Positions 461 to 61,022 of a DNA stretch of 61,022 nucleotides are shown piece by piece. The notes under the pieces were generated by a model. It was not told the origin of the DNA. It saw only the letters and a program-made list of their open reading frames with translations, and searched no databases. The stretch is from Octopus sinensis (Eukaryota), in NCBI RefSeq assembly GCF_006345805.1, contig NW_021834508.1, positions 1 to 61,022 on the forward strand. Reading direction: 5' to 3'. The first letter of the stretch is position 1. Each line of letters starts with the position of its first letter. The translations under genes and the position numbers were made by a program.

Positions 461-876
461 TTACTCTTTTTCTTTTTTTTTTTTACTCTTTTTCTTGTTT
501 CAGTCATTTGACTGCGGCGATGCTGGAGCACCGCCTTTAATCGAGCAACTCGACCCCGGGACTTATTCTTTTGTAAGCCCAGTACTTATTCTATCGGTCT
601 CTTTTGCCGAACCGCTAAGTAACGGGGACATAAACACACCAGCATCGGTTGTCAAGCAATGCTAGGGGGACAAACACAAACACACAAACACACACACGCA
701 TATACATATATACGACGGGCTTCTTTCAGTTTCCGTCTACCAAATCCACTCACAAGGCTTTGGTCGGCCCGAGGCTATAGTAGAAGACACTTGCCCAAGG
801 TGCCACGCAGTGGGACTGAACCCGCAACCATGTGGTTGGTAAGCAAGCTACTTACCACACAGCCACTTCTGCGCCT
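461..876 (-). mobile_element. tRNA-derived SINE family A (CORE-SINE-like; resembles octopus OR-type SINEs)
   Basis: The reverse strand reads AGGCGCAGAAGTGGCTGTGTGGTAAG (A box), GGTTCAGTCCC (B box), a CCTTGGGCAAGTGTCTT CORE-like motif, an internal (TG/TA) tract and a GTAAAAGA-type tail. More than 10 copies or fragments occur in the window. Confidence 0.9.
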
Positions 877-988
877 GTTCATTTTTATTATTCTTTTTTT
901 ATTTATTATTAGTGTTGCTTAATGTTTTGCTAAAATTGCTGTTTCTTTTCAGATATTATCAGAAAAAAGGTAATTAACTTTCATTAAA

Positions 989-1539
989 ATGACAGGTGTA
1001 TCGGACTTTCAAAGATGTCATATTGTTGGTGCTCGTATGGCAGGCGCTAATGTAAAGAAAGCAGTCGAAATGTTTCGTGTATCAAGAAGTACTGTCTCGA
1101 AAGAAATGACAGATTTTGAGAAAGGGGGAAAACCTCTTCGTCGGAACAAAACTCCGTAAGAAATCCCAAACTTTCAGATAGAGACCATCGGACTCTTACG
1201 CGAATTGTTAGAAAGGATCACAAAAGTACAGCTCCCAAAATTACTGCAGAGCTTAATGACCACCTCGAGAACCAAGTTTCCACAAAAACTGTTCGACGGG
1301 AACTGCACGAAGCCGGATTTCACGAGAGGGCTGCAATCAGAAAACCGCTACTTTCAGAAACAAACGTTGCACAGCGTTCAGAGTGGAGTAAAAACCTACA
1401 GAATTGGTCCCTAGAGCAGTGAAAGAAAGTTATTTTCTCGGACGAGTCATCCTTTACCTTATTTGTGATCAACGGCCGAGTATATGTGTGGGGACAGCCA
1501 AAAGAAGCATTTGACTCAGATTGCCTTCTTCCAACGTAG
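989..1539 (+). mobile_element. Tc1-family transposase pseudogene (N-terminal HTH region to first catalytic D)
   Basis: Manual translation with one frameshift and one stop: MTGVSDFQRCHIVGARMAG..VSRSTVSK../..PKLSDRDHRTLTRIVRKD..TVRRELHEAGF..RKPLLS..W..*KKVIFSDESSFTLF..GRVYVW. Truncated after LLPT. Confidence 0.9.
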
Positions 1540-6497: not shown

Positions 6498-7081
6498 TAT
6501 TTCTTTATTGTCCAGACAGAGAGGACAAACAAGGACGGACAAATGGATTAAGTCGATTATATCGACCCCAGTGCGTAACTGGTATTTGATTTATCGACAC
6601 CGAAAGGATGAAAGACAAAGTCGACCCCAGCGGCATTTGAACTCAGAACGTAGCGGCTGACGAAATACCTATTTCTTTACTACCCACAAGGGGCTAAACA
6701 CAGAGAGGACAAACAATGACAGACAAACGGATTACGTCGATTATATCGACCCCAGTGCGTAACTGGTACTTATTTAATCGACCCCGAAAGGATGAAAAGC
6801 AAAGTCGACCTCGGCGGAATTTGAACTCAGAACGTAGCGACAGACGAAATACCTATTTCTTTACTGCCCACAAGGGGCTAAACACAGAGCGGACAAACAA
6901 GGACAGACAAACGGATTAAGTCGATTGTATCGACCCCAGCGCGTAACTGATATTTAATTTATCGACACCGAAAGGATGAAAGGCAAAGTCGACCTCAGCG
7001 GAATTTGAACTCAGAACGTTGCGGCAGACGAAATACCGCTGAGCATTTCGCCTTGCGTGCTAACGATTCTTCCAGCCCGCC
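6498..7081 (-). mobile_element. tRNA-derived SINE family B, head plus tandem body repeats (trimer), 17-bp TSD
   Basis: One head (A box ..CTGG(C)AGAA.., B box GAGTTCAAATTCC), three bodies carrying the (G)CCTTTCATCCTTTCGGGGTCGAT domain, and TSD GCAGTTGTTACGTTTCT at 6481-6497 and 7082-7098. Confidence 0.88.
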
Positions 7082-7636
7082 GCAGTTGTTACGTTTCTAG
7101 TGTGGTTGTGATGTGTTGGCCCTGGTTGTTGTTGTGGCGTTTGTTGTTCTGCTTCTTACATTTGAACTTGTTCTGGATGTGGTTGCAGTTGTGTTTGTTC
7201 TTCCTGTTGTGAGAATTAGTCTTCGGCGCTTTTGTTGTGGTGATTGTTGCGGTGGTTGTTTTTATTGTTGTAGTTGTTGCTCAGATTGTTGTCCTTACTG
7301 TGGGAGTTATTACTTGTGTTGTTGCTGTGTTTGTCGAATACTTTCCTAAGTTGTTAAGACAGTGATTCGCAAACTGTGGGTGTGTCGTTAACTGAGATCT
7401 CGTGCTCCATAGAGTGTAAAAATCTAATTCAAGCCCTCTACAAATCAATTTTCATGCATGAGTGATTTGAAAACCTTGTTATTCATAATTTATTTTTACA
7501 CAAGTGTGAATTATAAATCTAAGGACACAGTTTCGTTTCTATATTATCTTTTTTAAGTTTTAAAATCTAAAGTTGATATATTCAAAATCATGACTATGTA
7601 ATGGCCAATAGAATTTAAAATCTAAAACATTTTGAA

Positions 7637-9352: not shown

Positions 9353-9589
9353 ATATAAGAGGGATGGCCTGTAAGTGGACATCCATTATGATAGAAGAAG
9401 ATCCGCTATGGTCTTACCACTAAGAAAGGAATGTTCTCAAGTAAATTTAGCAAACGCCTTAACGTAAGCGAGCAAGATTGCCTTCTGAGGTTTGCTAAAT
9501 TTTCTTGAGAACATTCCTTTCTTAGTGGTAAGACCATGGCGGATCTTCTAGCATAATGGATGTCCACATACAGGTCATCCCTGTTATAT
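9353..9589. repeat. Fold-back inverted repeat (~100-bp arms, ~35-nt spacer) between (TA)n tracts
   Basis: 9353-9455 is the near-perfect reverse complement of 9490-9589. Confidence 0.9.
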
Positions 9590-9599
9590 ATATATATAC

Positions 9600-10173
9600 A
9601 TTATAATAAAGGGTTAATTGCAACAAGTTGCTCAATACCACATACCGAAAATATTAGAAATGGCAGCCAAAAAGGTCACTATTTCTCCTACTAGTAAAAA
9701 AGTCTCTACAAACAAACAGAATTTGAAACCCGTATATGGTAAAGAGAAAGAAAATAACGAAATTCCAGCCTATTTGGATTAATTATGGACGAAATCGTTT
9801 GGAGGGAGATACGAATTCGCCTGTCTATATAAATATAGAGATGCTGGCAGACCGTTAGATCGTTCGATGTCGCCTGATCGAGCCGGTGTAGTGGGTGAGT
9901 TTATTTCCCTAGCATTTCTAGATTTATAGGAAATATTATATTGACAAGGAAATGAACCTCTGGTTCTACTCCAGAAACGATTTCGTCTATAATTAATCCA
10001 AATAGGTTGGGATTTCGTTATTTCTTTCTCTTTACCATATACGGGTTGCAACTTCTGTTTGTTTGTAGAGACTTTTTACTAGTAGGAAAAATGGTGACCT
10101 ATTTGGCTGCCATTTCTAATATTTTCGGTATGTGGTTTTGAGCAACTTGTTGCAATTAACCCTTTATTATAAT
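9600..10173. repeat. Fold-back inverted repeat (~200-bp arms, ~175-nt spacer), probable PLE inverted terminal duplication
   Basis: 9600-9800 is the reverse complement of ~9975-10173. The module continues to TTCACCCTTTTTG-(TA)n near 10270. Confidence 0.9.
9935..9993 (+). ncRNA. Type-I hammerhead-like ribozyme with a U3-A8 core variant
   Basis: ATTATA-TTGACAA-GGA(AAT)GAACC TCT GGTTC(TAC)TCC-A-GAAA-CGATTTCG-TC-TATAAT: 6-bp stem I, stem II hairpin, stem III ACGA/TCGT and a GUC cleavage triplet. Confidence 0.72.
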
Positions 10174-10504
10174 TAATATAATCCTTACCAAATATGGTCT
10201 TTTCCATACCGATAAAACTACTAGGTGAAATTTATTAATTTTATTGAATTAATTATATTTCACCCTTTTTGTATATATATATACATAGGTTTTTCACAAT
10301 AGCGCTCACGTTGTATTATTCGTCTGTTCAAATTCATGCGTTTTTCTAAGCCCTTATTCGGAAGATCAACGTATTTCATTGTATGTTTCCATTTCCAGTC
10401 CTTGAGGTGAACAGACGAATAATTATTATTGTTATGAATATTTTCATACTTATTAAAATAAAGCAATACAAATATTAAATCGAAAGTGAGTCGAAAACAC
10501 ATCA

Positions 10505-13244: not shown

Positions 13245-13651
13245 TACTCTTTCACTTTTTTCAGACATTCGACTGCGGCCATGCGGGAGTAGCGCCTTTA
13301 ATCGAGCAACTCGACCCCGGGACTTATTCTTTTGTAAGTCCAGTACTTATACTATCGATCTTTTGCCGAACCGCTAAGTAACGGGGACATAAACACACCA
13401 GCATCGGTTGTCAAGCAATGCTAGGGGGACAAACACAGACACACAAACACACACACACACACACAGATATATATATATATATATATACGACGGGCTTCTT
13501 TCAGTTTCCGTCTACCAAATCCACTCACAAGGCTTTGGTCGGCCCGAGGCTATAGTAGAAGACACTTGCCCAAGGTGCCACACAGTGGGACTGAACCCGG
13601 TACCATGTGGTTGGTAAACTAGCTACTTACCACACACCCACTTCTCTGCCT
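13245..13651 (-). mobile_element. SINE family A
   Basis: Colinear with the 461-876 copy. Confidence 0.88.
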
Positions 13652-14201
13652 ATATATTTATATATATATATATATATAATACGAAATGGGACAAGAACGC
13701 AAAACATTCAGATGGACGATACAAAAACACGGACGGGTCATTCGAAGCCTTCTATCCTCAGTCAAGAACCGGATCATCCTCACAATTTTGGCTGATTAAT
13801 CTTGCGATTGCTCCAATCTGGCCAGCCCCAAAGAAAGACTAAACTAAGAGCATAAGATTCCTTGGAAGAAATCATCGAATGTATACGAAAACAAGGACGG
13901 AAAAGCAGACGATGTTACACGAATATAAATACAAAATACAATAAAAATAATAATAACAGGACATAACAACAGGTGTCTTTCGACTGGGAACGAATTGAAT
14001 TCAGCTGGCGTGTGTGGAAATGAAGCCTTACGACAGATATACAAAGCTTTCACAAACACAGGGAAGAATATCGATGTTGCACTGACCACGGTCAGACGCA
14101 AAAAGAGGGCTAGCAGTCTGGCCTATTGGTCACGTGCGAAGAGAAGAGATAGAAAAACAGTTAACTCGTTTTGGCTGATATACCCAACGCCATATGCCCA
14201 C

Positions 14202-15351: not shown

Positions 15352-15720
15352 AAGGCGGCGAGCTGGCAGAAACGTTAGCACGCCGGGTGAAATGCGTAGC
15401 CGTATTTCGTCTGCCGTTACGTTGTGAGTTCAAATTCCGCCGAGGTCGACTTTGCCTTTCATCTTTTCGGGGTCGATAAATTAAGTACCAGTTACCCACT
15501 AAGGTCGATGTAATCGACTTAATCCGTTTGTCTGTCCTTGTTTGTCCCCTCTATGTGGGTTGTAAAGAAATAGGTATTTCCTTTGTGTTTACGTTCTGAG
15601 TTCAAATTACGCCGAGGTCGAATTTGCCTTTCATTCTTTCGGGGTCGATAAATTAAGTACCAGTTGCGTACTGTGTCGATCTAATCCACTAGACCCCTCC
15701 CCCAAAATTTCTAGAGTAGA
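15352..15720 (+). mobile_element. SINE family B dimer
   Basis: AAGGCGGCGAGCTGGCAGAAACGTTAGC head; a second body is joined at AAAGAAATA|GGTATTTC. Confidence 0.85.
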
Positions 15721-24999: not shown

Positions 25000-25421
25000 T
25001 ACTCTTTACTCTTTTACTCTTTTACTTGTTTCAGTCATTTGACTGCGGCCATGCTGGAGCACCGCCTTTAGTCGATCAACTCGACCCCGGGACTTATTCT
25101 TTTTGTAAACCCAGTACTTATTCTATCGGTCTCTTTTTGCCGAACCGCTAAGTGACGGGGACGTAAACGCACCAGCATCGGTTGTCAAGCAATGCTAGGG
25201 GAACGAACACAGACACACAAACACACACACACATATATATATATATATACATATATACGACAGGCTTCTTTCAGTTTCCGTCTACCAAATCCACTCACAA
25301 GGCATTGGTCGGCCCGGGGCTATAGCAGAAGACACTTGCCCAAGATGCCACGCAGTGGGACTGAACCCGGAACCATGTGGCTGGTTAGCAAGCTACTTAC
25401 CACACAGCCACTCCTGCGCCT
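25000..25421 (-). mobile_element. SINE family A, followed by a degenerate partial copy at ~25450-25575
   Basis: Full-length match to the family. Confidence 0.9.
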
Positions 25422-26064
25422 ATATATATAAACACACACATTTCTATATAGGACGAGCTTCTTTCAGTTTCCATCTACCAATTTCACTCACACTTGTTTT
25501 AATTGGTACGAGACTACAGTAGAAGTCACTTGCCCAAGATGCCAAGCGACGGAACTGAATGTGGGACCATGTAGCTGCGAAGCAATCCTATGTATTTGTC
25601 CGTGTGCTTCTGTGCATGTGTGCAAGTGTATGTATGACTGTGTGTTCGCGTCTGTATGTCTGTGTGTTCGCGTCTGTATGTACACGTGTAGGGAGTTTAA
25701 CTATACGCATCAGTGGAATTTCCAATCTTTCTTCTTATTGTTTTGGTGTTTCAGAATATTTTTTTGTTTTTTTTTACCTCTGTCTCCCTTGGCTGTCTCC
25801 ATTTCATTTTATATTTTGTTTTTGTACATTGCTCAAACGCATCTCGGCATTCGTACGCTTGTACAGGGCTGCATACATCTACGTATGTGTGTATGCATGC
25901 ATGTATATACATATATATGTTTGTGTGTGTATGTGTATGTGTGTGTTTGCTTAAGCATATCTGCGTATGTATACAGAGTGAGAGACTGCGCGATACTAGT
26001 TCATATATATACAAATACACACACACACACATATATATATATATATTGATATGTAAATGTATAA

Positions 26065-29088: not shown

Positions 29089-29124
29089 CCATAATTTTCG
29101 TTGCTTTAGCATCCTTGTCAATGG
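29089..29124 (-). ncRNA. Minimal hammerhead-like motif, U3-A8 variant
   Basis: Reverse strand CCA-TTGACAA-GGATGC TAAA GCAAC-GAAA-ATT-A-TGG, with palindromic AATT as stem III. Confidence 0.5.
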
Positions 29125-30644: not shown

Positions 30645-30850
30645 GTTGAATCGCTAGCTTCTGCACGCATTTTTTTTCTCTCCTTGTTTCTCTCCGTGTT
30701 TCTTTTCTGTGTATCTTTCTGTTGAAGAGCGTAGGCTCGAAACGTAAAAGACTTGTTTTATTTATATTGCTGAGCGCCATACTAATACAATTGTTTGTTT
30801 GTACTCCACCTGCCTTCGTCTTTTGTTTATTTTCATAAAGCTTCCCGTTA
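30645..30850 (+). mobile_element. PLE-like terminal module with a hammerhead-like motif (30714-30751)
   Basis: TCTTT-CTGTTGA-AGAGC GTAG GCTC-GAAA-CGTA-AAAGA. Same family as 33853-34110 (-). Flanked by (TATC)n and (TA)n. Confidence 0.6.
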
Positions 30851-31094: not shown

Positions 31095-31278
31095 GTGACC
31101 TCGTGCATACCGTTGGCGATTTTTTCCTCTGTCTTCCCTCCTCTGAATCTTTCCTTCTCCTATGTTTCCGACGAAGAGCTCCGCCCTGAAACGTTAAACC
31201 CTCCTTCTTTCCTTCTTTCCTGAGCGTCCAATTATACTATAATTGTTCCACGTCCTTTTGTGTTTCTTTGGATGAACT
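31095..31278 (+). mobile_element. PLE-like terminal module with a hammerhead-like motif (31164-31199)
   Basis: GTTT-CCGACGA-AGAGC TCC GCCCT-GAAA-CGTT-AAAC, a pyrimidine-rich tail with CTGAGCG as in the 30.7-kb module, and (TA)n flanks. Confidence 0.55.
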
Positions 31279-31454: not shown

Positions 31455-31691
31455 CTGTTGTGTCTGGGGAAAGAATTCTCATTTAGTGCCTTATAAATGA
31501 ACACACTCACCGGTAAAATTTCCACCTATTTCTTATTTATTTTTCTAAAGTTTCTTTGCATCTTGCAAGAGACAAAACTATTGAAAAGGTTACAAGACGC
31601 AATGAAACTTTTAGAAAAATAAAAAGGAAATAGGTGGAAATTTTACCGGCATGTGTGCACCAAAAAAGGGTGACTTTCCCAAGACGCAACA

Positions 31692-32228: not shown

Positions 32229-32337
32229 TAATATATATATATAATATATATATATATTAATATATATATGTATATATATATATATATATTATATATATTA
32301 CATTACATATAACTTTATAAATATATATATATAATAT

Positions 32338-32737
32338 AGGCGCAGGAGTGGCTGTGTGGTAAGTAGCTTGCTAACCAACACATGGTTCCGAGTTCAGTCC
32401 CACTGCGTGGCATCTTGGGCAAGTGTCTTCTACTATAGCCCCGGGCCGACCAATGCTTGTGAGTGGATTTGGTAGACGGAAACTGAAAGAAGCCTGTCGT
32501 ATATATGTAATATATATATGTGTGTGTGTTTGTGTGTGTTTTGTCCCCCTAGCATTGCTTGACAACCGATGCTGGTGTGTTTACGTCCCCGTCAATTAGC
32601 GGTTCGGCAAAAGAGACCGATAGAATAAGTACTGGGCTTACAAAGAATAAATCCCGGGGTCGATTTGCCCGACTAAAGGCGGTGCTCCAGCATGGCCGCA
32701 GTCAAATAACTGAAACAAGTAAAAGAGTAAAGAGAGT
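32338..32737 (+). mobile_element. SINE family A
   Basis: Full-length match to the family. Confidence 0.9.
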
Positions 32738-33852
32738 ATATGTGTGTGTGTGTGTGTGTGTGTACACAGACACATACACGGCTGTAGCGAAGAGTAATAT
32801 GTAATCCAAAGAAGGAATTTTGTAATCTTACAAGACCAGATACATTTGGATTCTTGTGACTGTTTCTAACGCTATTTTACGCACAGCATAAGTTTAAAGA
32901 CCTCCGCAATAGAGGAAATTTTGTATATTGGAGTGGCACCTCATCAAACATGAATGAACAGCTGCGTTCGTATATTGTGTAGAATGTGACAACAACGAAA
33001 AGATGGCGAATGTACGTATCAACGGAAAAATACTTTAGTTGAGGAAATACAGTAATAGCTCACTTTAAGAAAACCCGCTTTACGATAAACCCTGTTTACG
33101 ACTGTTATTTTTCGAGCAGAAGATCCAAATATTGAATGAAGTACAAATGTTTCTACTATCGCAACAAATGCTTCTGCGTGTTCCCCAGAATGGTATAGAG
33201 AGCGAAAAATAGCGTCTTCTAAGGAAACAACTCAAGACCTGTTTTTAAAAGGGAATCTATAAGTCCGTCTACGAGTGCTTGTGAAACGTCGGTCGCGTCG
33301 ACAAGTGATGCAGTGCGCGTGTCTAGTGGTGGTTTTCTCGAAGACGTCGCTCATGTCACCCTGCTATACTCTGTAGTCGACAAAATCCCAAAACAAACAA
33401 TGCGCATGGGTGGAAGAAAAAATATATAAAATGGCGACGATTTACATATCAGAGCCTATATATATATATGTGTGGGGGGGATATGTATATTATATATATA
33501 TTATATAATATATATATATATATAATTATATATATATATATATATATATTATATAATCAAAAAATTATAACAGACAATGGATATTTGTCATCTCTCTACC
33601 ACTGTTTCTTACTCATCTTTTTAATAGAAAAATAAGGAGATTAATCCATCACAAAAGCTGTAATCGTCACATGAAACGTAATTTTACAATCATAAGATCT
33701 ACAGAATATAGCAGAGTTTTGGCTGACGTCTGTCGAGGCCATGCAATGATGCATATCTTTTAAAGTACCTGATTCTATCCGAATCATTTATTTTACCATA
33801 TATATATATTATAATATATATTATATATATATAATATATATATATATATATA

Positions 33853-34110
33853 CAGTGAGAATTTACGAAAAAAATAAAAGACGAAGACGGGATGTATTAG
33901 TTTAACGCTCGGGAAGTGCGAATGTCTTTAACGCTTCGAGCCTACGCTCTTCGACAGAAGATGAAGACAGAAAGAAACAGGGAGAGGAAATAAAGAATGT
34001 GTAGTGGCTAGCGATCTATCATGGCAAATGCCGGACAGAGGGGTCACACAAAAGAGCTAGGAAGAAGGGGATATAATAAAGTAGTGGTGATCCCTAAACG
34101 AAGGTGCTCG
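33853..34110 (-). mobile_element. PLE-like terminal module with a hammerhead-like motif (33925-33961)
   Basis: Reverse strand TCTT-CTGTCGA-AGAGC GTAG GCTC-GAAG-CGTT-AAAGA; homologous to 30645-30850. Confidence 0.6.
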
Positions 34111-38502: not shown

Positions 38503-38745
38503 GAATAAATGAAAGAATGGAGTCGAACGATGTTAACAAAATTCCTTTACTCTCGACTGTTAACATCTTCGTTCGACTCCATTCTTTCATTTTTCATATA
38601 CAACACACAATTTCTGCACATGAACCCGGATTTCTACCCTTGGACAGGTCGCTTCAACCGTGTTTCTGACGTGAATTTGCTACCCAGGTTTCGGTTAAAC
38701 GAATTTCCATGCTGACGATAAACATAGGATAATTCATTCACCTAT
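38498..38745. repeat. (TA)n-embedded module with a ~45-bp-arm hairpin; related copy at 49297-49403
   Basis: ATGAAAGAATGGAGTCGAACGATGTTAACA pairs with TGTTAACATCTTCGTTCGACTCCATTCTTTCAT. Both module ends recur inverted at 49.3 kb. Confidence 0.8.
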
Positions 38746-38756
38746 ATATATATATA

Positions 38757-38794
<38 letters not shown>

Positions 38795-38835
38795 AAAATA
38801 GGAGATGTGGAACACGAGTTGTGATATATAAAAAA

Positions 38836-39243
<408 letters not shown>

Positions 39244-39600
39244 ATGTGTGAGTGTGTGTGTGTCTGTGTAGGCATGTGTTTTTATTTGTGCATGTTGTTT
39301 GTGTTTGTATTTGAGCGTGTGTGTATGTGTACAAACATCCACAAACACACACACACACACACACGCATGTACACACACACACACACACACCACTACTAAC
39401 ACACACACAGGCATGTATATTTGCACTTGGACTTTCGAGGAAGAGACGACTGCGGTACTGATAAAGACACCACTAAGCTTTTACCAACGATTAAATCACG
39501 GACTCTTCCACTTGTATTCAGGTACTTTAATAATGGTTGGCATACATACATCTGTATGTATGCAAATATATATGCACACACGGATATGTGTGTATATCAT

Positions 39601-39660
39601 AATAAAACTCAGTTTCGGATGTCGGGGCGGAAATACTGCTCCGGCATCTCGTCAGTTATT
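39601..39660 (-). ncRNA. Type-I hammerhead ribozyme with a canonical core
   Basis: Reverse strand AATAA-CTGACGA-GATGCCGGAGCAG TATTT CCGCCCCGACATC-C-GAAA-C TGA G-TT-TTATT: 5-bp stem I, intact CUGANGA/GAAA core, 13-position stem II with three mismatches, GUU site. Confidence 0.78.
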
Positions 39661-43972: not shown

Positions 43973-44814
43973 AAGGCGTCGAGCTGGCAGAATCGTTAGC
44001 ACACCGGGCGAAATGTTTAGCGGTATTTCGTCTGTCGTTATGTTCTGAGGTCAAACTCTGCGAGGTCGACTTTGCCTTTCGTCCATTCAGGGGTCGATTA
44101 AATAAGTACCAGTTACGCACTGCGGTCGATGTATCTGACTTAAACCTTTGTCTGTCTCTGTTTGTCCCTTCCATGTTTAACTAAATAATATATATTGTTC
44201 CCCTGTGGGCAATTAATATTTTTCTAATTTTAAGTCGGTGGGCTGGCAGAAGCGTTCTGAGTTCATATTCTGCCGGGGTCGACTTTGTCTATCGCCCTTT
44301 CGCGGTCGATTACATAAGTACCAGTTACGCACTGGGGTCGATGTAATCGACTTAATCCGTTTGTCTGTCCTTGTTTGTCCCCTTGTGGGTAATAAAGAAA
44401 TAGGTATTTCGTCTGGCATAAGGCAGAGAGCTGGCAGAAGCGTTAGCACGCCAGGCGAAATGCTTAGCGGTATTTCGTCTGCCGTTACGTTCTGAGTTCA
44501 ATTTTCACCAAGATCGACTTTGCTCTTCATCCTTTCGAGGTCGATTAAATAAGTACGAGTTACGCACTGGGGTCGATATAATCGACTTAATTCGTTTGTC
44601 TGTCCTTGTTTGTCCTCTCTGTGTTTAGCCCCTTGTGGGTAGTAAAGAAATAGGTATTTCGTCTGCCATTACGTTCTGAGTTCAAATTTTACTAAGCTCA
44701 ACTTTGCCTTTCATCCTTTCGGGGTCGATAAATAAAGTACAGTTGCGTACTAGGTTGGATCTAATCGACTGGCCCCATCCACAAAATTTCGGGCCTTGTG
44801 CCTACAGTAGTAAA
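43973..44814 (+). mobile_element. Cluster of SINE family B units
   Basis: Heads at ~43973, ~44232 (deleted) and ~44420, plus tandem bodies joined at AAAGAAATA|GGTATTTCGTCTG. Confidence 0.85.
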
Positions 44815-51192: not shown

Positions 51193-52285
51193 TTTGGTGT
51201 GTATATATTGTGTGAACTTACAGTAGTTTCTTTGAAAACGAAATAAGAACGAAACCTTGATATATTTCCCTTTGTGATAAGAGAAGTGGTCGAAGCAATA
51301 ATTAGGTAGCACGCATGCGTTGATGTGCACACACACAGACATCGGTACGAGCATACATAGACATGAATTAGACCAGGAGAAGAAAATCCATTGGAAGTAA
51401 AGAAGAGGAAAATAAGAGGAAGGAGAAAAAGATGGGAGAAGAATGGGGAAGATGCGGAGGAGATGAAGAAGGAGAAGAAGAAGGAGAAGAAGGAGAAGAA
51501 GACGAAGAAGACGAAGAAGAAGAAGAAGAAGAAGAAGAAGAAGAAGAAGAAGAAAAAGAAAGAAGAAAAAGAAGATGAAGAAGAATAACAAGAAGAAGAA
51601 GAAGAAGATGAAGGAAGAGGAGGAGAAGAAGAAAACGAAGTAGAAGATGACAGAGATGAAGAAGAATGTTATTATTCGAAGGTGAATTGAATGCTAAAAC
51701 GAAAGTAAAATCCTTCATACAGCTGATCATTGATCTAATCGATAAACCCACACAAATGAAAGAAAAGGCTAAACAAAGGTTATTAATCTGGTAGATTAAG
51801 GTTGTGTGTGTCGAACTAAATGTTAAAAGCAAACTTGCAGATATGAATACTCAAGGTGTTTTAGTAATTACTACCAATTATTCTATCAACTGGAAACTAC
51901 ATAAATTGTATAGATTAGATAGGGTCTCACAAGAAGAAAATAGAAAATAACGAATGCGTTCGGAACAGAATACTCATATACCAAAAAATAAGAGGAAAAA
52001 ATATTAGCAGAAACATAAGGTTGAAGAATTCTTTAGGAAGTGGAATAATAGTAATATTTAGCAAAGTAGGAATGAATTGAAAATAAAAGCATGAAGGTAA
52101 ATGTATATGAACAGAAGTTATGATAACAAACAGCCTTCGATAGAATACGGAAATACGAAAGACTATTCCTAAAATGCATTCTGTAAATGTTAGATTAGAA
52201 ACTGCGGGGATTGTCATACATTGCTAAAAAAATAACCCCTTTTTTATTGTTTTTCTAAAATACTGAAGAAGCCTGAATTAATATA

Positions 52286-52635
52286 TATTTCTTTACTACC
52301 CACAAGGGGCTAAAAACAGAGAGGACAAACAAGGACAGACAAACGGATTAAGTCGATTACATTGACCCCAGTGCGTAACTGGTACTTAATTTATCGACCC
52401 CGAAAGGATGAAAGGCAAAGTCGACCTCGACGGAATTTGAACTCAGAACATAAAGACAGACGAAATACCTATTTCTTTACTACCCACAAGGTGCTAAACA
52501 CAGAAAGGAAAAACAAGGACAGACAAACGGATTAAGTCGATTACATCGACCCCAGTGCGTAACTGGTACTTAATTTATCGACCCCGAAAGGATGAAAGGC
52601 ACAGTGGACCTCGGCGGAATTTGAACCCAGAACGT
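52286..52635 (-). mobile_element. SINE family B headless dimer
   Basis: Two bodies joined at CAGACGAAATACC|TATTTCTTTAC. Confidence 0.85.
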
Positions 52636-53599
52636 ATAAACATACTTCCATTGGTGTGTTTTTGAAAGCACACATGACTAGAAGATAAAAACGAAGGCTA
52701 TTTATTTAATCACTAAACAACCCTAAAGTGTTCATACGAAAAATTTAAGTAAAATATATGCGAAGTTTAATCACAACAGATTAAGAGCAGAATATGTGAA
52801 TTTAGAGATTAAAAACGTATGAAATACTTTCTAATTTTTGGTGTTGTGGTCGATCTGTTTCTGCTTTTATTTAATTACGACATAAATTTCATTTTTGCCA
52901 AACAGAAATTTGACAGAAACACAGAAAGGAAGCAAATTATAAAAATTAAGAGCTGGTTATGTAAATACGATAACGAAATGATAAAAAGAAATTGTTTATA
53001 GCTGATTATTATATAATTATTAAAGAAAACAGACTGTAATAACGAGACAAACCGAGTTTGTTTATATTTGTGACTGCGACGAAATAATGTCATTCAGAAG
53101 AAAAGGAAAAACAAATTCACACACACACACAAAAAGCAGATCTCGGTGAATTGCAAAGAGACCATATTTCGAGACATACTAATTTACAATGTCTCAAATA
53201 GTTTTCTGATTTGTTATCAGAAAGAAAAAAACAAAAAGAAAAATAGAGTGGAACAAGAGAAACAATGGCTACTAATCAAGCGGTCAGCGTTTTAGACTTT
53301 AAGGAAAATTTGAATGAATGGAAGCCAAGTAAAAGAGCGGAAAGGAGATGACCAAGTTGTGGGCATTGCAGACACAGACAATCGTTCTAATACTGATGGC
53401 CTGGGGAATGACAAAAATCAATGAAATGGAGAACGTTGTATACACAATGTGTTAGGAGATGCATACGGAAATGGCGTACGACAGCGCTGACGGCCCTGTT
53501 GCTTGCGTTACATAGTGTACATTCAGACGGAAAGTAAAAGCATAAAATCTACACACAAATAAAACTACATGAAACCCCCTCCCCCCACACGAAATCACA

Positions 53600-56843: not shown

Positions 56844-56893
56844 ATGAAGAAATGAAACTCACGAGTAAGATATTTTAACAGAATATGATGGAT

Positions 56894-57305
56894 AGGCGTA
56901 GGAGTGGCTGTGTGGTAAGTAGCTTGTTTACCAACCACATGGTTCCAGGTTCAGTCCCACTGCGTGGCATCTTGGGCAAGTGTCTTCTACTATAGCCTCG
57001 GGCCGACCAAAACCTTTGTGAGTGGATTTGGCAGACGGAAACCGAAAGAAGCCCGTCGTATATATGTATATATGTGTGTGCGTGTATGTTTGTGTGTCTG
57101 TGTTTGTCCCCCTAGAATTGCTTGACAACCGATGCTGGTGTGTTTATGTCCCCGTCACTTAGCGGTTCGGCAAAAGAGACCGATAGAATAAGTACTGGGC
57201 TTACAAAAGAATAAGTCCCGGGGTCGATTTGCTCGATTAAAGGCGGTGCTCCAGCATGCCCACAGTCAAATGACTGAAACAAGTAAAAGAATAAAGAGTA
57301 AAGAG
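56894..57305 (+). mobile_element. SINE family A inserted within a PLE-like module
   Basis: Full-length match, lying between the inverted copies at 56720-56770 and 57836-57888. Confidence 0.9.
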
Positions 57306-57907
57306 ATATGTGTAGTGATTAACTGAACGCAATTAAGTACAGGGTTTAATAAATTAATTTGGTATCTAAAAGACCACAATAAACAATTTTTATTTAGACT
57401 GGTTGATTCTCTCAATTTCGATAGCTTATGGTAAAGGAATTCTGTCTTCTCTGTAATTTTGAACTATCTTTCTTTTTTCTAAAAATTCTCTTGTAAACAC
57501 GGCGATGGAGCGTGCACACCGATGTAAATATTGGCAGAAACACACCTTTTGTTCATAGAAGTGATATCTATCATATATTATTTAATTTTCTTCTTACATT
57601 TCACATTCACTTGATATATCTTTTCCCAAGACAATGGGGTTTCATTTAATTTACATATCCTTATATGCTTCTCATTTATTTGGGGTTTTTTCTTTCCTCT
57701 ACCCCTCCTCTTTCTATAGGCTACCTTTGACATTATATCCTCCAACGCTTTTTTTAAAAAACAAACCTAATAACGTTCACTTATACATATCCATCATTTT
57801 CTGTTAAAATGGCTTATTGACGAGTTTCATTTCTTCATGTGTCGAAAGTAAAATAATTTGAATAACACCTGCGTTTAAATCCATTTATGCATACATACAT
57901 ACATACA

Positions 57908-58689: not shown

Positions 58690-59199
58690 ATATAATATAT
58701 ATATAATAATATATATATATGTATATTATATCTCCACATGCGAATGTATCTAAGTATAGATATACAGTTTGGGCAATTATGTTTAATTGGTGGAAGGTAA
58801 TGAGTTACAGAGTCCTAATTGCCTATCTCTAGTAATGGAATGCCTAATGGACAATGATAATCTCCGTGTGTTTCGGTGTAGGTGAGGTGTGAGTGGGGGG
58901 GCGAAGGAATTCTAAAGAACGCGTAAAGAGGTGTAAGAGTTCCTGGCTTAATTTTCCGGTGTAATCTGATTAGATCTTGTGAGATGTGAAAATGTGGGTA
59001 AAGTGTTGACAAATGAGAGGACGATGACGAAGCGGGTGACTACGAGGATGATGACGATGACGAACAAGAGGCTGGCGATGACGTCAACGATGACATAGAT
59101 GTTGGTTTGGGCGATGACCTTGGAGATGGTGATGTTCATATTGGTGACGATAAAAACGATAATAACGATGAAGAAGTGGAAGATAATAAGGATCATGAT

Positions 59200-60216
59200 G
59201 TTGGTGATGATGAGAAGGAACAGGAAGGGTGGATGGATCGGGTGGAAGAGGAAGGGGTGGAAGAAGAAAAAGAAAGAGGAAGGGAACGGTAGTGGGTAAT
59301 ATTGATGATGATAATTAAGGTGATGGTGATGATGATGATGGTGATGATGTTGGCGATGATGAGAAGGAACAGGAAGGGTGGATCGGGTGGAAGAGGAAGG
59401 GGTGGAAGAAGAAAAAGAAAGAGAAAGGGAACGGTAGTGGTAATATTCATGATGAAAATTAGGGTGACGGTGATGATGATGATGGTGATGATGTTGGTGA
59501 TGATGAGAAGGAACAGGAAGGGTGGATGGATCGGGTGGAAGAGGAAGAGGTGGAAGAAGAAAAAGAAAGAGAAAGGGAACGGTAGTGGTAATATTGATGA
59601 TGATAATTAGGGTGACGGTGATGATGATGATGGTGATGATGTTGGCGATGATGAGAAGGAACAGGAAGGGTGGATCGGGTGGAACAGGAAGGGGTGGAAG
59701 AAGAAAAAGAAAGAGGAAGGGAACGGTAGTGGTAATATTGATGATGATAATTAGGGTGATGGTGATGGTGATGATGGTGATGATGTTGGCGATGATGAGA
59801 AGGAAGAGGAAGGGTGGATCGGGTGGAACAGGAAGGGGTGGAAGAAGAAAATTAAAGAGGAAGGGAACGGTAGTGGTAATATTGATGATGATAATTAGGG
59901 TGATGGTGATGATGATGATGGTGATGATGTTGGCGATGATGAGAAGGAACAGGAAGGGTGGATCGGGTGGAAGAGGAAGGGGTGGAAGAAGAAAAAGAAA
60001 GAGGAAGGGACCGGTAGTGGTAATATTGATGATGATAATTAGGGTGATGGTGATGATGATGATGGTGATGATGTTGGCGATGATGAGAAGGAACAGGAAG
60101 GGTGGATCGGGTGGAAGAGGAAGGGGTGGAAGAAGAAAAAGAAAGAGAAAGGGAACGGTAGTGGTAATATTGATGATGAAAATTAGGGTAATGGTAATGA
60201 TGATGATGGTGATGAT
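59200..60216. repeat. 144-bp minisatellite, 7 copies, inside a (GAT)n low-complexity region (58990-60860)
   Basis: Unit starts at 59200, 59349, 59493, 59641, 59785, 59929 and 60073. Confidence 0.93.
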
Positions 60217-60512
60217 GATCATGATTATGAGGAAGAGAATGAAGATGATGATAATGATGATGTTGACAACGACAACGATTATGACCTTGATGATTAGGAG
60301 GAGAAAGACAACGAAGACGATGATGATGATGATGTCGATGTTGATGATAATAATTATGATGACGACGATGACGATGATAATGGTGATAAGGATGATGATG
60401 TTGTTGTTGATGATGATGATGTTGTTGTTGATGATGATGATGACTATGATGATGATGATGATGATGATGACGACGACGATAATGGAGATAATGATGATGA
60501 TGTTGGTAATGG

Positions 60513-60543
<31 letters not shown>

Positions 60544-60545
60544 AG

Positions 60546-60580
<35 letters not shown>

Positions 60581-61022
60581 AGGAGAAAGACAACGATGAT
60601 GATAATAATTAAAATGACGACGACGATAATGGAGATAATGATGATGTTGGTAGTGATGATGCCGATGACGATGGCGATAATAATAATGATGATGATGATG
60701 ATGATGATGAAGATGATGATGTTGACAATGACGATGATAATAATGATGATGGTGATGATGATGATAGTAATAATAATGATGTTGATGCTGATGATGATGA
60801 TGACGACATCGACGATACGGGTGATAATGATGATGATAATGGCATTGATATTGCTAGTATCGATAATATGTATGTGGTGGTGGGGGCCCGGGGTTTGTGA
60901 CGTTGTTTATCGTCAATAAATCAATGCTTGCATCTGATGAGATATTTTATCGATCTGACGTGAATCGAACTCGCAATGTATATTACGCAAATCATGAAGG
61001 ATGTTGATAATAAGTAGGTGAT

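What the first reader, a model, noticed from the sequence alone, without database searches (positions are those of the whole stretch)
9600..10270. Hammerhead with a U3-A8 covariant core at the edge of a 200-bp inverted repeat
Seen: the core reads UUGACAA instead of CUGANGA, keeping the 3-8 Watson-Crick pair. Stems I-III are intact, there is a GUC site, and one extra A precedes GAAA. The inverted arm copies the sequence downstream of the ribozyme and stops inside the ribozyme's 3' half. Known: the 3-8 pair is required in the active fold and compensatory variants can stay active. The same U3-A8 core appears at 29089, 31578 and 38902, which argues for selection rather than decay (inference).
Basis: partly seen in the sequence, partly recalled or inferred. 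Interest (0 to 1): 0.75.

Follow-up and report, generated by a model that had tools for sequence, protein, structure and literature searches.

The report
Variant hammerhead in Penelope-type repeat remnant
This is one copy of a very common jumping-gene end piece that carries a self-cutting RNA shape with a swapped but still paired core; that swap is already described in other animals, and this copy is probably a weakened passenger whose cutting has not been tested.

Summary
The motif is real: a type I hammerhead fold at 9929-9999 (+) with a U3-A8 core, an extra A (9973) before GAAA, GUC at 9985-87, and a 208-bp, 94% inverted arm that begins at A13. 60 shuffled windows gave no such hit. Contigs from three organisms show a high-copy family; no majority change is listed at U3 or A8 and no gap at the extra A (tables truncated), so these letters are inherited, not decay of this copy. 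U3-A8 is published for natural hammerheads (2011) and Schistosoma Penelope-like elements (2014). An inverted, 5'-truncated copy at the 5' end in TA repeats is the standard Penelope insertion pattern. The arms share family-rare letters, pointing to one template. This copy looks impaired: three minority letters weaken helix II, and the left arm captures the ribozyme's 3' half in read-through RNA. Of the three other sites, 29089 is a clean minimal hammerhead, 31578 its degenerate homologue, and 38902 fails. Least ordinary: a one-sided insertion before G12 and twin internal loops in helices I and II. Cleavage is untested, and no linked reverse transcriptase was found.

The parts
9602..10271 (.). 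Whole insertion: inverted 5'-truncated copy plus direct 5'-truncated copy of a high-copy repeat end (pLTR-like)
9587..9601 (+). 15-nt TA-repeat stretch repeated directly at 10272-10286; possible target-site duplication (weak: the same 15-mer occurs 19 times per strand in the window)
10272..10286 (+). Second copy of the 15-nt TA-repeat stretch
9602..9800 (-). Left (inverted) arm: copy of 9975-10173, beginning at ribozyme position A13; lacks the 5' core and helix II, so it is not a ribozyme
9798..9800 (.). Inversion junction; TTT shared by both orientations (microhomology, inferred from one X4 contig that aligns from 9798 and carries other sequence before it)
   Evidence: (table 7)
9801..9928 (+). 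Family sequence upstream of the ribozyme; TATAAA at 9828, donor-like GTGAGT at 9895, acceptor-like TTTATAG ending at 9929 (none shown to be used)
9929..9999 (+). Type I hammerhead fold with extended helix I
9941..9947 (+). Core 5' strand U3 U4 G5 A6 C7 A8 A9 (U3-A8 pair)
   Evidence: majority state in family contigs
9948..9972 (+). Helix II: 3 bp (G10.1-C11.1 first), 3x3 internal loop, 5 bp, 3-nt loop; three positions (9960, 9961, 9969) carry letters that are a minority in the family
9973..9973 (+). Extra A between C11.1 and G12
   Evidence: no gap row here among 12 of 23 indel rows shown
9974..9987 (+). G12-A13-A14-A15.1, near-palindromic helix III (self-duplex -8.3 kcal/mol, hairpin 0.0), U16.1, C17; predicted cut 3' of 9987
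9975..10173 (+). Right arm (direct copy)
10174..10271 (+). 3' extension present only in the direct copy (tail-like, 98 nt), with a hairpin at 10224-10264
29089..29124 (-). Minimal U3-A8 hammerhead of a second family (helix I CCA/UGG, palindromic AAUU)
31578..31614 (+). Degenerate homologue of the 29089 motif, U3-A8, helix I CUA/UAG; also has an inverted arm that starts inside the motif
38902..38940 (-).

Best explanation
9602-10271 is a remnant of a Penelope-type retroelement: the end repeat (pseudo-LTR) with its type I hammerhead, inserted into a TA repeat. Target-primed reverse transcription began near the 3' end and stopped at about 9800; a second, shorter copy from the same template was joined in inverted orientation (inferred). 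The active source elements carried U3-A8 and the extra A. The 3-8 pair was kept by selection for weak cleavage after GUC that needs a second copy (helix III exchange) or the element's protein (inferred). This genomic copy is a passenger: changes in helix II favour a misfold, and RNA read through from upstream would bury the ribozyme's 3' half in a 200-bp hairpin. Shown: anatomy, family status, shared arm letters, predicted folds. Not shown: cleavage, transcription, link to a reverse transcriptase gene.
For: Non-chance motif (0 hits in 60 shuffles). High-copy family in three organisms; summed contig depth at 9947 was 46,583 / 37,063 / 3,818 in runs X1 / X3 / X4 (not a copy number), with no row at 9941 or 9946 among 40 of 73 substitution rows shown, whose lowest best-run share is about 47%. 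Family contigs run on past the arm's end to 10253-10287 and carry other sequence before 9798; no listed piece spans the junction. 10 of 14 tested rows (8 distinct sites) are family-minority letters shared by both arms, e.g. 9707/10067 with at least 99.9% other letter. Published pattern: inverted 5'-truncated copy at the 5' end, one-sided tail, microsatellite bias (PMC8557442 passages). U3-A8 in PLE hammerheads, about 1,300 hits in S. mansoni (PMC4209133); a U3.G8 intermediate appears in its Fig. S3 Saccoglossus row. A second family in the window keeps U3-A8 while helix I covaries. With the family's majority letters helix II pairing rises from 0.24 to 0.94-0.99. Helix III is dimer-competent. 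A PLE hammerhead was protein-assisted in vitro (PMC11167929).
Against: No reverse transcriptase or GIY-YIG domain in 45 of 106 long reading frames scanned, and no genome was available, so the PLE link rests on architecture. No Rfam hammerhead match. In a pairwise mutant screen only G3-C8 rescued; other doubles in this region were low. One X10 contig has A9 changed to U. The three minority letters all lie in unpaired positions, but that is weak (p 0.02, or 0.08 if two are one event; post hoc). The 98-nt extension is longer than the 30-40 bp published tail.
Confidence: 0.6

Rival explanations
1. Same element and same insertion mechanism, but the hammerhead was already dead in the source copy (U3-A8 plus an insertion next to the general base G12) and was amplified as neutral baggage.
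For: Ribozyme mutants did not affect insertion by a PLE protein in vitro (PMC11167929); whole PLE clades lack hammerheads; U3-A8 was not a rescuing double in one screen; I found no activity data for a one-sided insertion at 11.1/12.
Against: Both changes keep a Watson-Crick pair, in two unrelated families here and in S. mansoni; no majority change is listed at any other core or paired position of 9929-9999 in the three large runs.
Confidence: 0.22
2. A non-autonomous derivative (retrozyme-like or SINE-like) moved by PLE proteins, with no coding element of its own.
For: No coding region nearby; helix I of 6 bp and a 3-bp helix III resemble canonical type I motifs more than minimal ones; retrozymes are related to pLTRs (bioRxiv 10.64898/2026.07.22.740005 section 14).
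Against: No tandem unit of 150-450 bp here and no go-back joint in table 5; the family continues upstream of 9798 with other sequence (one contig).
Confidence: 0.1
3. The inverted arm is a selected antisense switch that keeps the ribozyme off in read-through transcripts.
For: Folding predicts complete capture of 9975-9993 by the left arm; a similar arm starting inside the motif lies at 31502-31657.
Against: The junction is not seen in any listed family contig; the arms have drifted (9 substitutions in 199 positions); such inversions are a routine by-product of PLE insertion.
Confidence: 0.04
4. A MITE or fold-back DNA element with 200-bp terminal inverted repeats and a chance hammerhead-like centre.
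For: Long inverted repeat in TA repeats; a fold-back element lies next door (9353-9589).
Against: Family contigs cross the supposed right end at 10173 and none spans the left junction; the motif is not a chance match.
Confidence: 0.03

Closest known systems
U3-A8 hammerheads of Cercyon-type Penelope-like elements in Schistosoma mansoni (Cervera and De la Pena 2014, PMC4209133; Results, Discussion and supplement parts 1-2 read)
   Same: Type I, U3-A8 core, G10.1-C11.1, palindromic helix III region, mostly single dispersed motifs, pairs on opposite strands 100-700 bp apart
   Different: Here helix I is 6+3 bp, helix III has 3 bp and a 4-nt loop, helix II has an internal loop, and the extra nucleotide lies 3' (before G12) rather than between 9 and 10.1. 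The 29089 site fits the published minimal type closely.
PLE hammerheads with a nucleotide before GAAA (Adineta vaga, Hydra, D. willistoni rows of Fig. S3 of PMC4209133; my reading of PDF text with columns not kept)
   Same: A nucleotide between helix II and G12; Hydra row also has a 3-bp helix III
   Different: Those have C3-G8 and an extra nucleotide on both sides (a mismatch); here it is on the 3' side only in the best-pairing register
Natural U3-A8 hammerheads (Perreault et al. 2011, PMC3088659, sections 8-9 and passages read)
   Same: Same covariation, reported in several natural examples
   Different: No insertion between 11.1 and 12 is among the variants named in the sections read (A6a, U13a, 2a/2b are)
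Inverted/partial-tandem PLE insertions (Craig et al. 2021, PMC8557442, passages read)
   Same: Inverted 5'-truncated copy directly at the 5' end, extension at one end only, microsatellite target
   Different: No coding region at this locus; extension is 98 nt rather than 30-40
Non-LTR retrozymes (Cervera and De la Pena 2020, PMC7229834, passages read)
   Same: Non-coding, low G+C, type I hammerhead
   Different: Not a tandem repeat here; non-canonical core

Membership tests
Hammerhead ribozyme, canonical type I | Three helices around the core | tested here: met
   helix III unstable as a monomer
Hammerhead ribozyme, canonical type I | C3-G8 (CUGANGA) | tested here: not met
   U3-A8 at 9941/9946; not filed as canonical
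Hammerhead ribozyme, canonical type I | G12 directly follows 11.1 | tested here: not met
   extra A 9973
Hammerhead ribozyme, canonical type I | U4 G5 A6 A9, GAAA, G10.1-C11.1, A15.1-U16.1, H17 | tested here: met
Hammerhead ribozyme, canonical type I | Match to an Rfam hammerhead model | tested here: not met
   one match at E<=10, a microRNA family; one search showed 150 of 333 matches, none a hammerhead
Hammerhead ribozyme (any variant) | Site-specific self-cleavage after N17 | not testable with these tools
   only contigs were available
U3-A8 PLE hammerhead variants | Watson-Crick U3-A8 as family state | tested here: met
   no majority alternative listed at 9941/9946 in four runs; 40 of 73 rows shown
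U3-A8 PLE hammerhead variants | Palindromic 15.1-16.1 segment allowing dimer pairing | tested here: met
   8 of 10 positions pair in the self-duplex, -8.3 kcal/mol
U3-A8 PLE hammerhead variants | Unpaired nucleotide between 9 and 10.1 (minimal-type consensus) | tested here: not met
   absent at 9941 site in the best register; present at the 29089 site
Penelope-like element | Inverted 5'-truncated copy adjacent at the 5' end | tested here: met
Penelope-like element | Hammerhead within the end repeat | tested here: met
   motif lies about 285 nt before the 3' end of the copy
Penelope-like element | 30-40 bp tail at one end | tested here: inconclusive
   one-sided extension is 98 nt
Penelope-like element | Reverse transcriptase plus GIY-YIG reading frame linked to the repeat | tested here: inconclusive
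   none in 45 of 106 frames of the window; a solo end copy need not have one; no genome to search
Non-LTR retrozyme | Head-to-tail tandem units of 150-450 bp | tested here: not met
   single unit at this locus; none indicated table 5
MITE / TIR element | Inverted-repeat-bounded unit shared by family copies | tested here: not met
   family contigs cross 10173 and no listed piece spans 9800

The most novel reading that the evidence does not exclude
The family encodes an active, architecturally new hammerhead in which U3-A8 and a one-sided A inserted next to the general base G12 are tolerated because two matching 3x3 internal loops (the same AAU/UAA strands, flanked by GGA/UCC, in helix I and, with the family's majority letter at 9969, in helix II) form an undescribed helix I-II contact. 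Together with the A6U family and the 39655 motif in the same window, this genome would be a reservoir of naturally fixed core variants for testing hammerhead catalysis rules.
Probability: 0.15. Interest if true: 0.55.

Novelty: new variant of a known kind. Interest (0 to 1): 0.28.

Why it matters
The headline feature (U3-A8) and the inverted arm are both published for Penelope-like elements, so the finding mostly adds a host and a family. What remains of value: a high-copy family that appears to have fixed U3-A8 together with an insertion beside G12 is a natural test of how far the hammerhead core bends, and of whether PLE hammerheads are under selection at all, which is still open (Craig et al. 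call their function unclear; Frangione et al. found cleavage unnecessary for insertion in vitro).

Tried and rejected
Own-genome search: no genome is held. Pattern scans for family copies found 0 loci in metagenome contigs, viral contigs (39) and genome contigs (40), so no multi-copy alignment or covariance model could be built. No RNA holder was listed; X10 is only guessed to be RNA and its contigs span the cut site, which says nothing about cleavage. Joints 9605 to 10270/10272 in X4 (side 21 letters) were considered as an empty site and rejected as unreliable. A 35-nt intron 9895-9929 ending at helix I (as in D. virilis Penelope) has motifs only; no joint supports it. Local CpG decay (C7-G8) as the source of A8 in this copy: rejected, A8 is the family state. 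The descriptor missed 9941 through a helix III bug; fixed. cannot see motifs with a 1-nt loop III such as 39655. The bacterial promoter scan is irrelevant to this host. Lunse et al. 2017 on PLE hammerhead variants is not held, so I saw only its citation in PMC6765202; it and the unseen Figs 5, S6 and S7 of Perreault et al. may already show an 11.1/12 insertion. A recalled likeness of the loops to the UAA/GAN motif found no paper and is dropped. Searches for hammerheads in cephalopods listed no such paper; one search was swamped by unrelated hits. Earlier-scan look-ups by sequence, place and long word list were empty.

Full report
1. Observation. A descriptor accepting any Watson-Crick 3-8 pair found two sites in the window (9941+, 29121-) and none in 60 dinucleotide shuffles made in 500-nt blocks. 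The inverted repeat is 9593-9800 against 9975-10180, 208 columns at 93.75%; it starts at A13. Rfam does not recognise the motif. The fold is not the predicted ground state: -11.5 against -14.1 kcal/mol, helix II paired at 0.24 and helix III at 0.01-0.02.

2. The three other sites. 29089-29124(-) is a clean minimal hammerhead with U3-A8, an extra G after A9 and a palindromic AAUU. 31578-31614(+) aligns with it over the motif and downstream flank; helix I covaries (CCA/UGG against CUA/UAG), U3-A8 is kept, but the closing pair of helix II is G-U and the palindrome is broken. 38902-38940(-) has GCAA for GAAA and no helix I and was not returned with up to one deviation and three helix I pairs, or two deviations and four pairs. 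So the window holds two U3-A8 families, not four independent cases.

3. Family. No genome is held, and pattern scans of three collections found nothing. Twenty of 24 listed runs hold part of the stretch, the best 0.40 of its words. I laid 4 of the 24 (X1, X3, X4 from three organisms; X10 guessed to be RNA) at 80% likeness: 2,438, 1,717, 1,205 and 26 contigs. Summed depth at 9947 is 46,583, 37,063, 3,818 and 37, which shows a high-copy family but is not a copy number. Of 73 substitution rows 40 are shown; none lies at 9941 or 9946, and the lowest best-run share among those shown is about 47%. If the table keeps rows by share, as it appears to, U3 and A8 are majority letters in all four runs. 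Of 23 indel rows 12 are shown, none at 9973; two X10 contigs cover 9917-9974 with no gap and 9917-10000 with one gap, listed at 9981. Within 9929-9999 the majority differences are 9960, 9961 (81-100%) and 9969 (100%), all unpaired positions; one X10 contig has A9 changed to U; minor deletions occur at 9981 and 9984. Caveat: depth in X1 falls to about 6,000 at 9969 and about 1,000 at 9981, so the statement on the extra A covers only the copies alike enough to be laid there.

4. Structure of the insertion. Family contigs cover 9809-9984 and run on beyond the arm's end to 10253-10287; one X4 contig aligns from 9798 and carries other sequence before it; no listed piece spans the junction at 9800 (32 of 5,513 pieces shown). 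So the direct copy is 5'-truncated near 9800 and the left arm is a shorter inverted copy. Of 15 shown substitution rows inside the arms I tested 14 (9744 left out, minor in the DNA runs): 10 rows, 8 distinct sites, are letters shared by both arms against the family's other letter, including 9707/10067 (at least 99.9% other letter) and 9662/10111 (87-100%); in 3 rows the other arm has the family letter, in 1 a third letter. One template is the simplest reading; an unsampled subfamily or gene conversion are alternatives. The arms differ at 9 of 199 positions. Both ends lie in TA repeats with a 15-nt direct repeat, weak as a target duplication because the 15-mer occurs 19 times per strand. Craig et al. 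(PMC8557442, passages) describe exactly this layout for Penelope-like elements: 5'-truncated copies, an inverted 5'-truncated copy directly at the 5' end, a tail at one end, microsatellite targets. No reverse transcriptase or GIY-YIG domain was found in 45 of the 106 frames of at least 100 codons (I left out most low-complexity frames). The repeat landscape looks like an octopus genome to me; that is recall, not a tool result.

5. Mechanism. Inferred: the source element's RNA carries the hammerhead in its end repeat; helix III is not stable alone (0.0 kcal/mol) but pairs with a second copy (-8.3 kcal/mol, 8 of 10 positions), as proposed for PLE hammerheads, which cut weakly and as dimers (PMC4209133; PMC6765202 passages) or only with the element's protein (PMC11167929 passages). 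With the family's majority letters helix II pairing rises to 0.94-0.99, while helix III stays at 0.04-0.06, so this copy folds worse than its family. In RNA that includes the left arm, 9975-9993 pair with 9800-9782 and helices I and III vanish; a transcript starting at 9858 also loses helix I to a downstream competitor in the prediction. This copy is therefore unlikely to cut.

6. What is known. Natural U3-A8 covariation was reported in 2011, with a citation that such ribozymes are active in vitro (PMC3088659 section 8). About 1,300 U3-A8 motifs were found in S. mansoni PLE repeats; Fig. S3 of that paper also shows a U3.G8 row and, on my reading of flattened PDF text, rows with a nucleotide before GAAA paired with one after A9. 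Against activity: in a complete pairwise screen of one hammerhead only the G3-C8 swap rescued (PMC9901934 passage). I found no paper on a one-sided insertion between 11.1 and 12 or on hammerheads in cephalopods (an O. vulgaris repeat annotation, PMC13282606, has no occurrence of 'hammerhead' or 'ribozyme'), but Lunse et al. 2017 could not be read. PMC6155905 (passages), PMC7229834 (passages) and the 2026 retrozyme preprint (abstract and section 14) gave background only.

7. Verdict. A real, family-level U3-A8 hammerhead variant in a probable Penelope-type end-repeat remnant; it works like the known PLE hammerheads and is not filed as canonical. New only in its combination of features: the one-sided insertion and matching internal loops in helices I and II. 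Interest 0.28.

Noticed in passing
window 30714-30755 (+) and about 33920-33962 (-): Two copies of a minimal-hammerhead family with C3-G8 but U at position 6 (CUGUUGA, CUGUCGA); the second copy has also lost A15.1. A6U in both suggests a family-level core variant.
   Followed up: partly
window 31165-31199 (+): Distant relative of that family with A6 kept and U4 changed to C; lies head-to-tail after the 30719 copy across TA repeats.
   Followed up: partly
window 39600-39660 (-): C3-G8 hammerhead candidate with 5-bp helix I, long helix II, an extra C before GAAA and a near-palindromic helix III: a second one-sided insertion before G12.
   Followed up: partly
window 9353-9589: Adjacent fold-back element (85% self-complementary); family contigs continue its right arm past 9593, so it is cut short where the studied insertion begins; very high depth.
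   Followed up: partly
window 31502-31657 and 38732-39239: Further fold-back structures; in the first the inverted arm also begins inside a hammerhead-like motif.
   Followed up: partly
window 10224-10264 (+): A+U-rich hairpin near the 3' end of the element (z -3.0 for 10174-10290); could mark the start of reverse transcription as in the anole PLE, untested.
   Followed up: no
window 9895-9929 (+): Donor-like GTGAGT and acceptor-like TTTATAG 35 nt apart, the acceptor ending at the start of extended helix I; no splice joint seen.
   Followed up: partly
window 1120-1419 (+): Tc1/Tc3-type transposase helix-turn-helix fragment (PF01498, E 2e-17).
   Followed up: no
window 471-882, 13245-13676, 25007-25430, 32316-32738, 56888-57309 and others: A dispersed repeat of about 420 bp in many copies at 80-95% identity, and a second family at 6516-7083, 15352-15711, 44420-44790, 52280-52636; SINE-like by recall.
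   Followed up: no
window 59179-60841: Tandem array with a period near 144-149 bp built on GAT-rich triplets, open for 652 codons on the minus strand, no Pfam match.
   Followed up: no
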